From positions 1 through 39,965 of IMG/VR virus record IMGVR_UViG_3300028840_003139: a stretch of 39,965 nucleotides of DNA; one strand, given 5' to 3'. Under the pieces are notes generated by a model. The model searched no databases, was not told the DNA's origin, and was given only the letters and a program-made list of their open reading frames with translations. Positions 10,676-35,655 of the stretch are shown here, one piece after another. The number at the start of each line of letters is the position of its first letter. Within the stretch, counting starts at the first letter, position 1. This DNA is from a virus. Lineage: Duplodnaviria > Caudoviricetes. A program made the translations under genes and the position numbers.

Positions 10676-10710
10676 GCCGGCCGCCCCCAGGGGGAGGGAG
10701 AAATCCCGCC

Positions 10711-10865
10711 CAGCCGCCCGCTCCGCAGCACAGGTCAATCGCGTCAATCGTGGCCATTGTTCGCCCTTGCTTTGCGAGCCGCCCGCTGACAGCCGGCCAA
10801 GGCCCGCGCTCGCGTCCGCTGGCGGCTGATCACCGTCCAGCCGTGCTCGTCCCGGCACTCCGCGC
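10711..10865. repeat. 155-bp direct repeat, copy 1 (copy 2 at 11481..11635)
   Basis: Manual alignment: 5 mismatches. Confidence 0.95.
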
Positions 10866-11440: not shown

Positions 11441-11527
11441 TCAAAACAGTCTCCTTTGCAGCGACTTGCCCCGCGGCTGCCAGCCGCCCGCTCCGCAGCA
11501 CAGGTCAATCGCGTCAATCGTGGCCAT
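11441..11527 (-). pseudogene. Remnant of a DNA cytosine-5 methyltransferase N-terminus (28 aa)
   Basis: MATIDAIDLCCGAGGW resembles SAM-binding motif I, followed by QPRGKSLQRRLF-stop. A second copy lies at 10668..10757. Confidence 0.55.
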
Positions 11528-11635
11528 TGTTCGCCCTTGCTTTGCGAGCTGCCCGCTGACAGGCGGCCAAGGCTCGCGCTCGCGTCCGGTGGCGGCTGAT
11601 CACCGTCCAGCCGTGCTCGTCGCGGCACTCCGCGC
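11481..11635. repeat. 155-bp direct repeat, copy 2
   Basis: Matches 10711..10865. Confidence 0.95.
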
Positions 11636-15893: not shown

Positions 15894-16009
15894 AAAACCG
15901 CGCCGGCCCGGACCAGGGGGGGAAAGCGGACCGACGCGGCCATCACGGACTCTGAGAAGGCGCAGCCGCCGCGGCGATTCCGTCCCGGCTGCGCCCCACT
16001 CCTCGTTTG
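15894..16009 (-). repeat. 116-bp two-hairpin + U-tract element, copy 1
   Basis: Matches 16704..16819 with 9 mismatches; stems preserved. Confidence 0.9.
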
Positions 16010-16703: not shown

Positions 16704-16819
16704 AAAACCGCGCCGGCCCGGACCAGGGAGGGAACGCGGACCGACGCGGCCATGAAGGACTCTGAGAGGGCGCAGCCGCCGCGGCGATTCCCTCCCGGCT
16801 GCGCCCCGCTCCTGATTTG
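16704..16819 (-). repeat. 116-bp two-hairpin + U-tract element, copy 2 (terminator-like)
   Basis: On the minus strand CCGCGTCGGTCC pairs with GGGCCGGCGCGG, followed by TTTTTTGTTT. Confidence 0.9.
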
Positions 16820-25634: not shown

Positions 25635-25969
25635 TTTTTTCCCCGCTCCTCCTGCGCCGCCTTCGTCATGGCGTTATGGTCTTGCGCGGCATCCGAGATC
25701 CGCCGCAAGGTTGTCTGATTCTTTTTGGCCAACGCCTCGGCCTGCTCCCGCGTAAACAGCGGCCGGCCCAAGCCGTCGCGGGACACCAAGGCGACGAATC
25801 GCCCCAGAAAGTTCGGCTCCTTGTCGATCCCCTGCAAGCCTTCCGCCTCCTCGCCGGTGAGCGTGGCCACGTAGACCACGGCGTCCTCGCCCCACTCGGG
25901 CACGGCCACTTCGCGCAGCGGCAGATCGTCGGCCCCTAAAATATCTTCCGCAGTCGGCACGCGCGTCAT
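25631..25969 (-). CDS. Tail assembly chaperone (gpG-like)
   Basis: EDILGADDL..REVAVPEWG motif; ends RGKN-stop. Confidence 0.85.
   Translation of the reverse strand: MTRVPTAEDILGADDLPLREVAVPEWGEDAVVYVATLTGEEAEGLQGIDKEPNFLGRFVALVSRDGLGRPLFTREQAEALAKKNQTTLRRISDAAQDHNAMTKAAQEERGKN
25634..25644 (-). other. Programmed -1 frameshift slippery site (G GGA AAA AAC)
   Basis: XXXYYYZ heptamer just before the stop; frame arithmetic joins the two chaperone ORFs. Confidence 0.85.
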
Positions 25970-26703
25970 ATCAGCACCTCCTCTTGGGTCAGCCCTGCCC
26001 GGAGCTCGTCGATCAGCTCGTCGGCCAGGTCGAAATGGTAGCTCCGATAGCGGAGCCCGTTGGTATCCGAAAGCCCTTCGCCATGGTGAACCATCCAACG
26101 CCAGGGCGTGTAAGTCCGCAATTCGCCCATCGGCCGATCCGGCCGTCGCTCAAGAGATTGCAGCGAGCCGAAGATCCGATCGACGTTGAATTTCTCCTCC
26201 TCCAGACAGTGCGGGAATCGATCGATTGTGTCGCGCAGGGCATCGATGGCCCGACCGCGCAGGGCATAGGCCCAGGTGCCCAAAACACAAAAACCCTGCA
26301 AAACCTCCCGATTCACCGATACCGGGCAACGATCTTTCTCCCAATGCCGGCCGCCCAGGTAGAGCATCTCCCAATCGTCGGGGACCACGTCCAGGAATCG
26401 CCGCGCCCGCAGATCGAAATCCGGCAGCAGCAGCGCATCGTCCTCGAAGATCAGCAACGACTCGACGCCGTCGCGCAGCGCCGCGTTGCAGACGGCCAGG
26501 TGCGAGCGAAAGCAGCCCCAAGCCCCGGCCGTCCCCCCAAAACCTTCCGGCGGCGGATGATCGCGGCCGTCGAAGGCCGCGACCCGCTCCGGCTGGCGGT
26601 CGAAGGGCCAGTCGATCCGGCGGAGATTGGCCCGGATCCGCAGCCAGCGGTCGGGCCGCCGATCGAGATTGACGATCACAATCCGGTCGAAATCGATCAT
26701 CAT
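25966..26703 (-). CDS. Glycosyltransferase family 25
   Basis: VNLDRRPDRW, GCFRSH, LIFEDDA, WEMLYLG and TWAY motifs. Confidence 0.88.
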   Translation of the reverse strand: MMIDFDRIVIVNLDRRPDRWLRIRANLRRIDWPFDRQPERVAAFDGRDHPPPEGFGGTAGAWGCFRSHLAVCNAALRDGVESLLIFEDDALLLPDFDLRARRFLDVVPDDWEMLYLGGRHWEKDRCPVSVNREVLQGFCVLGTWAYALRGRAIDALRDTIDRFPHCLEEEKFNVDRIFGSLQSLERRPDRPMGELRTYTPWRWMVHHGEGLSDTNGLRYRSYHFDLADELIDELRAGLTQEEVLI

Positions 26704-31945: not shown

Positions 31946-31975
31946 GGAATGCTGAATGCTGAATGCTGAATGCTG
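31946..31975 (+). repeat. (GCTGAAT)~3.5 array abutting the island boundary
   Basis: Visible. Confidence 0.92.
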
Positions 31976-32064
31976 CACTAGGAGCTGCCGGGGCCGCACC
32001 GCCCGGTAACCCCCCCCTAACGGGCCATTTTGCCGCGAATCCGGAAAATATACGATCATATCTA

Positions 32065-32092
32065 TTGACGGCCGGGCCGAGATATATATAAT
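32065..32092 (+). promoter_or_regulatory. Sigma70-type promoter TTGACG-N16-TATAAT
   Basis: Near-consensus boxes in an AT-rich patch upstream of the XRE gene. Confidence 0.75.
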
Positions 32093-32115
32093 CATGTATA
32101 AATGGAGACACGACC

Positions 32116-32361
32116 ATGATGACGACAATCGCACACACGGAGGGAATCGGGCGGCAGATCCGGGAGTGCCGAGAGGCGGCCGGACTGAGCCAGGCGGAGT
32201 TGGCCGAGCGGGCTGGGCTCTCGCAGCCACACGTCTCGCTGATCGAGGCGGACGGCCGACCGGAGCTGTCCATCCGTACATTGATGCGGTTGGCCGACGC
32301 GCTGAATGCGGACTGGTGCTATGACGGCCGGCGGATCGTCTTCCGCCGACGGAAACCATAG
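32116..32361 (+). CDS. XRE/Cro-CI-type HTH regulator (81 aa)
   Basis: IRECREAAGLSQAELAERAGLSQPHVSLIE...TLMRLADAL. Confidence 0.93.
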   Translation: MMTTIAHTEGIGRQIRECREAAGLSQAELAERAGLSQPHVSLIEADGRPELSIRTLMRLADALNADWCYDGRRIVFRRRKP

Positions 32362-32424
32362 CCGGGCGACCGGGCTGTCAGGTCGCACGTTGGCCGCGAG
32401 CGGATCGCGAGGAAGGGAAACAAA

Positions 32425-32658
32425 ATGACACGGCAGACTGAATCGGAGGCTGCGCCACGCAGCCATTTTCTGGATTTGGTGGATTCGGGTAAATGCCCGG
32501 CCAGCAGCAGTGGCGAGAAACGTGCAAGGCGAATCGCCTTGGTCCTCCTCGATGAGCTGCCCGGGCTAGACGCCGAAGCGGTCGAGGGACTACACGATTT
32601 CCTTGATCTCGTCGAGGCCATGCCGAGCACGGCAAGGAGTTTGGTCGAGGGGCCTTGA
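32425..32658 (+). CDS. Hypothetical protein (77 aa)
   Basis: Purine-rich RBS, ATG start. Confidence 0.6.
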   Translation: MTRQTESEAAPRSHFLDLVDSGKCPASSSGEKRARRIALVLLDELPGLDAEAVEGLHDFLDLVEAMPSTARSLVEGP

Positions 32659-32705
32659 GGCCGCAGCCACGCCACCGGCCGACGGTGGCAGAAAGGGAGC
32701 GATCA

Positions 32706-33077
32706 ATGCAATTAGATGATTTGGATGATCTTGCGGGTGAGATTTTGCGTGCCATTGACGTAGACGAGGACAACAATCAAATCCTCCTGACTACGGAGAG
32801 CGGCAGAGAGATCCTCCTGCACCACTGCCAAAGCTGTTGCGAGAAGGTCCGCATTCTCGACACTGAAGGGGAGTGGCGTCAACTGCTGGGTAAGCCGCTC
32901 TTGGATGCCACGCATCACGAGCAACAGGCCGATACCGCGCGAGGCTCTGAGACGCGAACGGCACTGACGTTCTGCGTCGATGGAGCAACGGTAATTTCGA
33001 GGTGGATCGGAAAATCCAACGGATATTACAGCGAGTCAGTCCATATCCGCGAATTGACGGAGCCGTGCCAGCCGTGA
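32706..33077 (+). CDS. Conserved-type phage protein (HxQxCCExV...SNGYYSE family)
   Basis: HCQSCCEKV and RWIGKSNGYYSESV motifs; GGGAG RBS. Confidence 0.8.
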   Translation: MQLDDLDDLAGEILRAIDVDEDNNQILLTTESGREILLHHCQSCCEKVRILDTEGEWRQLLGKPLLDATHHEQQADTARGSETRTALTFCVDGATVISRWIGKSNGYYSESVHIRELTEPCQP

Positions 33078-33147
33078 TTCAGTATTAGCCGGGCCACCGG
33101 GCTGTCAGGTGGCGAATTTAACCGCCTCTCGAGGCAGGAGCTTTACG

Positions 33148-33648: not shown

Positions 33649-33745
33649 TCTCCTCGCCGATAAACGGCAGAAAGGGTGAAACGATGGCTTATCACGGAAC
33701 GGGGCACTAGTGACTCACGTATATCAATGCCGAAAGGAAAGTGAA

Positions 33746-34141
33746 ATGAAGGCAACAGAATACCGAGCATGGGCGCACCAAAACCAAGTCGCTCACGGCT
33801 CCATGTCCGCTGTCGAGTGCGAGACGATCGCAGAGGCCGAAAGTTACGTAACGGATTTTCCGACGTGCCAGCATGGATTCGCCACGTGCGGGCAGATCGC
33901 GTTGGCCCGGACCGACGACGCCGAGGTCGCCAACAGGGCACGCGAGCTGCTGATAGCTGCCGGTTATCGCTGGGATGGGGCGGATGGTTATTGGCTCAAA
34001 CCGCAATTCTGCGCATGCGCGAGGATCCATCGTAGCCTAAAATATGCACGGATCTCCGTCAGTGCAGCCGAGGGGCCAATCGCGTACCGTTTGGGGCCAG
34101 GCGGTTATCTGCCTCCCGGCGATCGCCCGACCTTGGGTTAA
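33746..34141 (+). CDS. Hypothetical protein (131 aa)
   Basis: AAGGA RBS. Confidence 0.6.
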   Translation: MKATEYRAWAHQNQVAHGSMSAVECETIAEAESYVTDFPTCQHGFATCGQIALARTDDAEVANRARELLIAAGYRWDGADGYWLKPQFCACARIHRSLKYARISVSAAEGPIAYRLGPGGYLPPGDRPTLG

Positions 34142-34161
34142 GGACGCCGACCCGGGCTGCA

Positions 34162-35151
34162 CTAGGAGCTGCCGGGGCGGCGCTGCAAGCGGGATTGGAG
34201 GCGGCGGCGGCGGGACCGGAGCCGGGGATCTGTCATCGCCGTAGACTCCGGGCCATAACGCCACTGAAGGTAGCGCTCGAGCCAGCCGAGGCAATGGGCC
34301 CGCAGCTCCTCGCGGCCGAGTCGGGGGAACTGCCGGTCGAGCAGCTCGGCCCCACGGCGGACGATTTCATCGGGCAGATCGCCGGCCGAAAGGAAGCTGT
34401 CGACGGCATCGCCGGTATCCACCACGTCGGAGGCGTGCAGCTCGGTCGGATACCACAAGGGCGGCAGCTCTTCCCCGTTCTCGTCGCGGACCCGCCGGCC
34501 CTTCTTGTCCAGCCGATACAACTCGTCCGCCTTCAGGACGAGCGACGAGGCAAACGCCTCCGGGTCGGACTCGGCCAGGCGGAGGACGTAACCGCCGAGG
34601 TCGCCGCTGGGCGTGTCGAACGAGGTCGGATCCAGGTGCAGGTCCGCCCGGACGCGATCGGTCTCCAGCCGCGCGTTATGGGCCCGGCCCAAGAACTTGC
34701 CGATCCCGTCGTCTGAGAGGGTCGGGTGGGCGAAGCGCGACTTGAGGCCCTTCGGCGTGGCATTCATCAAGCGGACGATCTGCTTGAGCCCCTTCTGGTC
34801 GAACTCGCCCCGTCCCTCGGTCTTGAATGCCCCCTCCTGGGCCACGACATAGCCGCGGATCACGTTCTCATCGTGGTCGACGCCTATCGGCGGTGCGGTG
34901 ACGTTCGACCGCAGCCAGGCCGTTGCCGATTCGAGCGGCGGCGAATGCCAGAAACGACCCGCATGTGCAGGCTGCCTGTTCGTGCTGGTGTTGCTCATTG
35001 GTGCTTGCTCCTTTTTTCGCTCCCACTGGGTTTGACAGACAGCCCGCCGCTGGGCGGGGTCCTCGTATTCGTCGACCATCACCGGATCGCCCATGCAGCG
35101 GTCGATGAAGTCGGGCTCGCTTTCATTGGGGCGGGGGGTTGGTAAAGGCAT
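34162..35151 (-). CDS. Putative prohead maturation protease with a small N-terminal domain
   Basis: Lies between portal and capsid; KSRFAHP, FASSL and LHASDVVDTGDA resemble the His/Ser and C-terminal motifs of HK97/herpes-fold proteases. Confidence 0.6.
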   Translation of the reverse strand: MPLPTPRPNESEPDFIDRCMGDPVMVDEYEDPAQRRAVCQTQWERKKEQAPMSNTSTNRQPAHAGRFWHSPPLESATAWLRSNVTAPPIGVDHDENVIRGYVVAQEGAFKTEGRGEFDQKGLKQIVRLMNATPKGLKSRFAHPTLSDDGIGKFLGRAHNARLETDRVRADLHLDPTSFDTPSGDLGGYVLRLAESDPEAFASSLVLKADELYRLDKKGRRVRDENGEELPPLWYPTELHASDVVDTGDAVDSFLSAGDLPDEIVRRGAELLDRQFPRLGREELRAHCLGWLERYLQWRYGPESTAMTDPRLRSRRRRLQSRLQRRPGSS

Positions 35152-35159
35152 GGATCTTA

Positions 35160-35190
35160 ATTCAGCATTCAGCATTCAGCATTCAGCATC
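35160..35190 (+). repeat. (ATTCAGC)~4 array
   Basis: Supplies the stop of 35176..35343. Confidence 0.93.
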
Positions 35191-35383: not shown

Positions 35384-35655
35384 GTGCGGCGGCCACTCGC
35401 CCCGGCAGTTCTGCAGGGCGGCCCCGTCACATTCGATCGTAGCCACGCCCTCGGCGCGAACTGCCAGAAATGACTCCTGTTCATGGTAGCGGTGTTGCTC
35501 ATCGGTGCTTGCTCCTCTTTTCGCTCCCACTGGGTTTGACAGACGGCCCGCCGCTGCTCTGGATCGTCGTAGTCCTCGACCATCACCGGATCGCCCATGC
35601 AGCGATTGATGAAGTCGGGCTCGGTTTCGTTGGGGCGGGGTGAAGGTAACGGCAT
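35371..35655 (-). CDS. Truncated paralog of the protease N-terminus (94 aa)
   Basis: MPLPSPRPNETEPDFINRCMGDP... versus MPLPTPRPNESEPDFIDRCMGDP...; shared AWLRSNVT. Confidence 0.7.
   Translation of the reverse strand: MPLPSPRPNETEPDFINRCMGDPVMVEDYDDPEQRRAVCQTQWERKEEQAPMSNTATMNRSHFWQFAPRAWLRSNVTGPPCRTAGASGRRTAEC

What the first reader, a model, noticed from the sequence alone, without database searches (positions are those of the whole stretch)
32359..33113. 28-nt motif repeated in island spacers with a perfect compensatory base change
Seen: TAGCCGGGC[G]ACCGGGCTGTCAGGT[C]GC (32359-32386) versus TAGCCGGGC[C]ACCGGGCTGTCAGGT[G]GC (33086-33113). The only two differences swap a G-C pair for C-G in the stem GCsACC/GGTsGC, around an invariant GGGCTGTCA loop. 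Each copy follows a stop codon and precedes an RBS. Inference: a selected hairpin such as a boxB-like protein-binding site, a processing site or a cassette recombination site.
Basis: partly seen in the sequence, partly recalled or inferred. Interest (0 to 1): 0.72.

Follow-up and report, generated by a model that had tools for sequence, protein, structure and literature searches.

The report
Uncatalogued hairpin spacer in phage islands
A 26-base sequence able to form a hairpin sits between small genes in four otherwise unrelated phage-type gene islands and matches no Rfam family; it likely works as folded RNA, possibly a small pseudoknot, that marks and protects gene-sized pieces of the message.

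Summary
The copies lie in a 2.2-kb island with its own promoter and five small genes, inserted with a 23-nt duplication between the protease-like and capsid genes of a probable Planctomycetota phage. The 26-nt core recurs in spacers of three other islands (L003, L008, L056 twice). It is the only DNA the window's island shares with them, and it always lies on the sense strand before a ribosome-binding site. L056 carries an intact type II hammerhead in a sister spacer. The stem forms in all six copies, but the loop is not invariant. The fixed part is the 5' half, which fits an H-type pseudoknot, as does a third, diverged window copy at 32666. Pseudoknot covariation was not found, and an unbiased enrichment test was negative. 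Rfam has no match. Most likely it is a structured mRNA spacer that protects or punctuates the message (0.5); boxB and recombination-site readings are weaker. The scan reported similar spacer settings on other DNA before, but not this sequence.

The parts
32359..32386 (+). Motif copy 1; overlaps the XRE stop codon; stem GCGACC/GGTCGC
33086..33113 (+). Motif copy 2; stem GCCACC/GGTGGC; 26-nt core identical to the L003 and L008 copies
32666..32689 (+). Probable third, diverged copy: same stem, shorter loop, GCC kept two bases upstream; fits the pseudoknot reading but not the alternative 5' hairpin
   Evidence: weak model score 14.3 bits, E 0.36
33656..33668 (+). Weak 4-bp hairpin in the fourth spacer before a ribosome-binding site; relation to the motif not shown
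32065..32092 (+). Sigma-70-type promoter match (11 of 12) heading the island
32116..32361 (+). XRE-family helix-turn-helix gene, 81 aa; 47% identical to the last gene of the L003 island
32425..32658 (+). 77-aa ORF, no Pfam or PHROG match
32706..33077 (+). DUF7448 / phrog_2650 gene, 123 aa
33148..33648 (+). 166-aa ORF; 41 unnamed relatives; no credible family
33710..34141 (+). Last island ORF (143 aa from GTG, or 131 aa from ATG 33746), no family; preceded by an 8-codon ORF at 33684-33710
31972..31994 (.). Left copy of the 23-nt direct repeat bounding the island
34156..34178 (.). Right copy of the 23-nt direct repeat; holds the stop codon of the protease-like gene on the minus strand

Best explanation
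The repeat is a spacer module shared by four otherwise unrelated phage-type gene islands, and it likely acts as folded mRNA that marks and protects gene-sized pieces of the island message. Shown: position between small genes, sense orientation, a ribosome-binding site downstream, and an intact hammerhead in a sister spacer of one island. Predicted: a 6-bp stem in all six copies. Inferred: the GCC just upstream pairs with GGC in the loop to give a compact H-type pseudoknot (3-5 bp first stem, 2-nt first loop, 6-bp second stem, 4-5-nt last loop). Inferred: after host nucleases or a neighbouring ribozyme cut the long transcript, this structure shields the new end, so each gene's message decays at its own rate. 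Inferred: the module spreads by being copied along with gene ends, and repeated copies help genes shuffle as a side effect.
For: Six copies lie in four islands, all in spacers, all on the sense strand, all before a ribosome-binding site. The motif is the only DNA the window's island shares with the other three, and the only DNA L056 shares with any of them (blastn). The stem is predicted in 6 of 6 copies with mean pair probability 0.71-1.0, against at most 0.12 for the alternative 5' hairpin; both L056 loop variants keep a hairpin. L056 has a type II hammerhead of 57 bits in another spacer, the only one in 41 virus records searched. Hammerheads in 12 of 151 genomes of the probable host order mostly begin at a stop codon and precede a ribosome-binding site, the same slot. 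Hammerheads flanking single genes in prophage operons are published and were shown to cut (PMC3088659, passages). For the pseudoknot: GCC and GGC are invariant in 6 of 6 copies while the last loop varies. The third window copy keeps both while changing the 2-nt linker. A crude energy estimate favours the knot over the hairpin by 0.6-1.7 kcal/mol.
Against: There is only one compensatory change in all, and 88 of 500 shuffles reach the observed covariation score. The pseudoknot's first stem never varies, so it is not tested by covariation. Among spacer hairpins not used to define the motif, only 2 of 13 fit the geometry (p 0.43), and 465 spacers of related phages show no excess at the expected linker length. 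One L056 copy has an A-C mismatch on the sense strand that would be a G-U pair on the other strand, so the working strand is not fixed by pairing. In nested-fold predictions the motif does not free the downstream ribosome-binding site (0.53 unpaired against 0.75 with the motif shuffled for copy 1). The window phage has no hammerhead match, and the model found no motif beside 19 host-genome hammerheads. L003 and L008 share other spacer modules, so they are not independent of each other.
Confidence: 0.5

Rival explanations
1. A sequence-specific protein-binding site on RNA, either boxB-like for antitermination or a translational operator read by a phage protein.
For: 14 of the 15 bases of the 5' half are invariant in 6 of 6 copies, more than a plain stem needs, although my search patterns fixed part of them. 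L003 and L008 carry a short upstream module that loosely resembles boxA.
Against: The 3' half of the loop varies. No boxA-like sequence precedes the window or L056 copies (read by eye). The only protein shared between the window's island and another is the XRE DNA-binding protein. The two plus-strand terminator-like hits in the island lie inside ORFs and are at shuffle level.
Confidence: 0.17
2. A functionless relic carried along with gene ends, perhaps a hammerhead that lost its catalytic core, with the compensatory pair made by template switching rather than selection.
For: The start (A/C)GCCG at a stop codon matches how host-order type II hammerheads begin, and the stem resembles stem I of the L056 hammerhead. 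L003 and L008 spacers look by eye like altered hammerheads. The non-stop TAG and TGA in second copies show that flanks were copied along. Template switching can repair stems (PMC8794818, abstract).
Against: The 26-nt core is identical in three islands whose flanks and genes differ from the window's. The hairpin survives two different loop changes. Rfam did not score the L003 or L008 spacers as hammerheads.
Confidence: 0.15
3. A DNA-level shuffling site: short homology that lets the genes between copies be excised and inserted, as with PeSL cassettes.
For: The genes beside the motif differ in every island. PeSL recombination makes mini-circles (PMC2839356, passages). This phage has several genes bracketed by direct repeats.
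Against: The island's junctions are a different, perfect 23-nt repeat. The motif has no promoter or terminator part. A compensatory change lowers homology between copies and is not expected if homology is the job. No recombinase gene was found in the island.
Confidence: 0.13
4. A ligand-binding or catalytic mini-RNA; its fixed 15 bases resemble the P3 hairpin of the ZTP riboswitch.
For: The L008 spacer's best Rfam hit is ZMP-ZTP, with the fixed half aligned on P3 (19.3 bits, E 2.1). P3 forms the floor of the ZMP pocket (10.1101/521930, passages).
Against: The score is far below the family cut-off of 39 and at chance level. The window copies lack the 5' aptamer domain and have no hit. No ZTP riboswitch was found in 101 genomes of the probable host order, while the control genomes rang. 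At 26 nt it is smaller than known self-cleaving RNAs (recalled).
Confidence: 0.05

Closest known systems
Hammerhead ribozymes flanking single genes in prophage operons (Perreault et al. 2011, PMC3088659; Rfam RF02276)
   Same: Same slot between small, variable genes, from a stop codon to a ribosome-binding site; an intact one lies in a sister spacer of L056.
   Different: The motif has no catalytic core or third stem and no Rfam hammerhead match.
PeSL promoter-stem-loop cassettes of T4-type phages (PMC2839356)
   Same: Repeated intergenic stem-loop modules around variable small genes.
   Different: PeSLs each hold a strong promoter and a terminator stem-loop; this motif has neither, and the island has one promoter match on its strand.
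Lambda nut site, boxA-spacer-boxB (PMC2724277, introduction)
   Same: A short GC-rich hairpin in a promoter-driven phage operon.
   Different: No boxA in the window copies, a partly variable 8-9-nt loop, repeated between genes, and no shared N-like protein found.
ZTP (pfl) riboswitch P3 hairpin (Rfam RF01750)
   Same: A 15-nt GCCG...GGGC element whose inner bases pair outside the hairpin.
   Different: The partner strand lies downstream, not upstream; the 5' domain is missing; the score is below cut-off.
Phage moron: a gene block with its own promoter inserted among late genes (recalled)
   Same: The island sits between protease-like and capsid genes with its own promoter; 19 of 21 related loci lack an insert of this size.
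   Different: It runs against the late operon, holds five genes and is bounded by a 23-nt duplication; no terminator was found at its end.

Membership tests
Hammerhead ribozyme (type II) | Catalytic core CUGAUGA, GAAA, UH with three stems | tested here: not met
   No Rfam match in the window; the core letters are absent from the motif
Hammerhead ribozyme (type II) | Position between small prophage genes, from stop codon to ribosome-binding site | tested here: met
Hammerhead ribozyme (type II) | Self-cleavage in vitro | not testable with these tools
   needs a transcription assay
Lambda-type nut site (boxB) | boxA upstream of the hairpin | tested here: not met
   Absent by eye before the window and L056 copies; only a loose likeness in L003 and L008
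Lambda-type nut site (boxB) | Short, fixed purine-rich loop (recalled) | tested here: not met
   The loop is 8-9 nt and its 3' half varies
Lambda-type nut site (boxB) | Cognate arginine-rich antiterminator protein | tested here: inconclusive
   No shared island protein except XRE; such small proteins are easily missed
PeSL cassette | Sigma-70 promoter plus terminator stem-loop in each copy | tested here: not met
PeSL cassette | Excision circles between copies | not tested
   No reads were laid on the island
ZTP riboswitch | Full aptamer above the Rfam cut-off of 39 bits | tested here: not met
   Best score 19.3 bits in L008; none in the window
ZTP riboswitch | Upstream of purine or one-carbon genes (recalled) | tested here: not met
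   Downstream ORFs that were scanned have no family match; the gene after the first L056 copy was not scanned from its own start
H-type pseudoknot | Two crossing stems with workable loop lengths | tested here: met
   52 of 53 cells paired in six copies; the third window copy fits
H-type pseudoknot | Covariation in both stems | tested here: inconclusive
   One change in stem 2, none in stem 1; enrichment tests negative

The most novel reading that the evidence does not exclude
The element is a minimal 26-nt pseudoknot with a ZTP-P3-like pocket that phages place in hammerhead slots, and it senses a small molecule or stops a nuclease to tune accessory genes one by one: a new class of phage-borne mini-switch.
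Probability: 0.06. Interest if true: 0.8.

Novelty: new variant of a known kind. Interest (0 to 1): 0.4.

Why it matters
Phage accessory operons punctuated by hammerheads are known, but what the non-catalytic spacers in the same slots do is open. This one is very small, is shared by islands with unrelated genes, and comes with natural variants (a swapped pair, two loop variants, a shortened copy). That makes a four-mutant probing and reporter test easy. It would show whether such spacers protect message ends, bind a protein or are relics. It also documents a compact inserted island in a phage of probable Planctomycetota hosts. The family found so far is small (six or seven copies), which limits its reach.

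Tried and rejected
Collection scans with no true copy: viral 20-base pattern, 0 loci; stem-free pattern, 2 loci read as chance; 15-base core, 36 loci, none with the full stem; genome collection, 0. The ribosome-site module pattern gave 5 unrelated loci. Dropped rows: of 6 metagenome loci, 2 are this phage itself and 2 (L004, L005) were set aside as lying in coding DNA, L005 by eye only; both dropped hits nevertheless had a complementary free pair. Of 104 loop-free hits I kept L056 and left L123 as ambiguous: it fits every invariant base but lies between an HNH-like and a terminase-like gene. Genome searches: 0 of 50 related records, 50 of the 77 I wanted; 3 of 267 host-order genomes against 4 control hits; model R1 found strong hits only in G001 among 40 records and 0 of 151 class genomes, with no positive control. 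BLAST against phages and plasmids gave only chance-level pieces. Relatives of the 166-aa protein were not found in viral contigs. The alternative 5' hairpin was rejected as the main fold. An inversion between the arms was rejected because the loop is not inverted. The idea that the motif keeps the ribosome-binding site open was not supported. No reads were laid, so variant or empty-site forms in the source population are unknown.

Full report
Observation. Both copies are present as described, with no other match within 3 mismatches and none in shuffles. The two differences exchange one pair of a 6-bp stem, which is the predicted fold; the chance of that pattern is about 0.5%. Copy 1 begins at the stop codon of an XRE gene. 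Copy 2 begins 8 nt after the stop of a DUF7448 gene, so its TAG was copied along and is not a stop.

Setting. The window is a whole 39,965-nt virus record with terminase, portal, capsid, connector and tail genes on the minus strand. The gene at 34162-35175 has no family match itself; two of its listed relatives carry PF04586, which I recall as the prohead protease family, and its position fits. Its relatives in genomes lie mostly in records labelled Planctomycetota or its subgroups (14 of 25 by title), so that host is probable but not shown. Between this gene and the capsid gene lies a plus-strand island with a near-consensus promoter and five ORFs, bounded by a perfect 23-nt direct repeat that duplicates the end of the protease-like gene. 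Of 100 related loci, 21 held both genes. The gap was at most 852 nt in 19 of them (some are near-duplicates), 1867 and 4302 nt in two with other inserts, and 2563 nt here. The island is therefore an insertion, and its junctions are not the motif.

Relatives. A metagenome scan gave 6 loci: two are this phage, two were set aside as coding, and two (L003, L008) are spacers in arrays of small genes. A loop-free viral scan gave 104 loci, of which L056 is a third such array with two copies; L123 is ambiguous. All six copies are on the sense strand, in spacers, upstream of a ribosome-binding site. The motif is the only DNA the window's island shares with the other three; L003 and L008 also share other spacer modules with each other. 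Searches of genomes, related phage records, cultured phages and plasmids found no further copies, so the family is small as far as I could see.

Structure. The stem is predicted in 6 of 6 copies and outcompetes an alternative hairpin in the 5' half. The fixed GCC upstream and GGC in the loop can pair, giving an H-type pseudoknot; 52 of 53 cells pair, but that stem never varies and 88 of 500 shuffles reach the covariation score. A diverged copy in the spacer between the two (32666-32689) keeps both triplets and the stem while changing the linker, and a crude energy sum favours the knot slightly. Against this, the geometry is common by chance: 2 of 13 other spacer hairpins fit (p 0.43), and 465 spacers of related phages show no excess. 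One L056 copy has a mismatch that would pair only on the other strand. I regard the hairpin as likely and the pseudoknot as about even odds.

Mechanism. L056 has an intact type II hammerhead in another spacer, the only one among 41 virus records. Hammerheads in the probable host order (12 of 151 genomes) mostly start at a stop codon and precede a ribosome-binding site, although none of those 19 loci holds the motif. Published work shows clustered hammerheads cutting prophage transcripts into gene-sized pieces (PMC3088659, passages). The motif occupies the same slot without a catalytic core. I infer that it is a structured spacer that protects or marks the ends of such pieces (0.5). It does not appear to work by keeping the ribosome-binding site open. 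The rivals are a protein-binding site (0.17), a relic whose pair was repaired by template switching (0.15; PMC8794818, abstract and opening of the introduction), a PeSL-like shuffling site (0.13; PMC2839356, passages) and a ligand-binding or catalytic RNA (0.05). The last rests on a chance-level ZTP alignment in L008 (10.1101/521930, passages) and is not helped by the absence of ZTP riboswitches from 101 host-order genomes. No expression data bear on any of this.

Known families. It fails defining features of hammerheads, nut sites (PMC2724277, introduction), PeSLs and ZTP riboswitches. Rfam has no match at cut-off in the window, L003, L008 or around the L056 copies. I found no description in the full-text searches, which used context words, not the sequence. 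PMC5737381 (passages) notes that bacterial self-cleaving ribozymes lie near certain gene classes; its supplements, which list many motifs, were not read and could hold a relative. Earlier notes of this scan describe other structured spacers in hammerhead slots and a widespread pseudoknot after stop codons. They give no sequence, liken that knot to luteovirus or preQ1 types, and a look-up by sequence found nothing, so I cannot say it is the same family.

Verdict. A real, small, uncatalogued spacer motif in a known kind of setting; function inferred, not shown. Interest 0.4.

Noticed in passing
window 34987-35151 and 35491-35655; 10710-10865 and 11480-11635; 15894-16009 and 16704-16819: Three more long direct repeats (147/165, 151/156, 107/116 identical); the first two bracket small genes and the first duplicates the start of the protease-like gene. 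They suggest repeated insertion by recombination.
   Followed up: partly
window, many intergenic sites: Runs of several 7-nt tandem repeat units fill many spacers on both strands.
   Followed up: no
window 32047-32100: Two imperfect AT-rich repeats flank the island promoter's hexamers, a possible operator for the XRE protein; L003 has a 10-nt direct repeat in the same place.
   Followed up: no
L003 4195-4280, 5020-5095, 5415-5525 and L008 1155-1240, 1500-1591 (minus strand): A repeated long-hairpin module that looks like a type II hammerhead with a consistently altered core, followed by a shared ribosome-site module. It could be decayed ribozymes or a variant class; Rfam does not score it.
   Followed up: partly
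L056 2339-2364 (minus strand): A second possible pseudoknot with a different stem sequence lies just upstream of the second motif copy.
   Followed up: partly
L009-L013, around the pattern match: A conserved intergenic element after a short ORF that resembles a hatchet ribozyme (resemblance recalled, not tested).
   Followed up: no
L303 6950-8790 and L366 10900-15090: Related phages carry other, unrelated inserts between the protease-like and capsid genes, so this junction takes inserts repeatedly; L366 has long runs of 6-nt repeats there.
   Followed up: partly
L426-L444: Type II hammerheads in genomes of the probable host order often precede genes that start with lysine- and threonine-rich peptides.
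   Followed up: no
window 25966-26703 (minus strand): A glycosyltransferase family 25 match among the tail genes.
   Followed up: no
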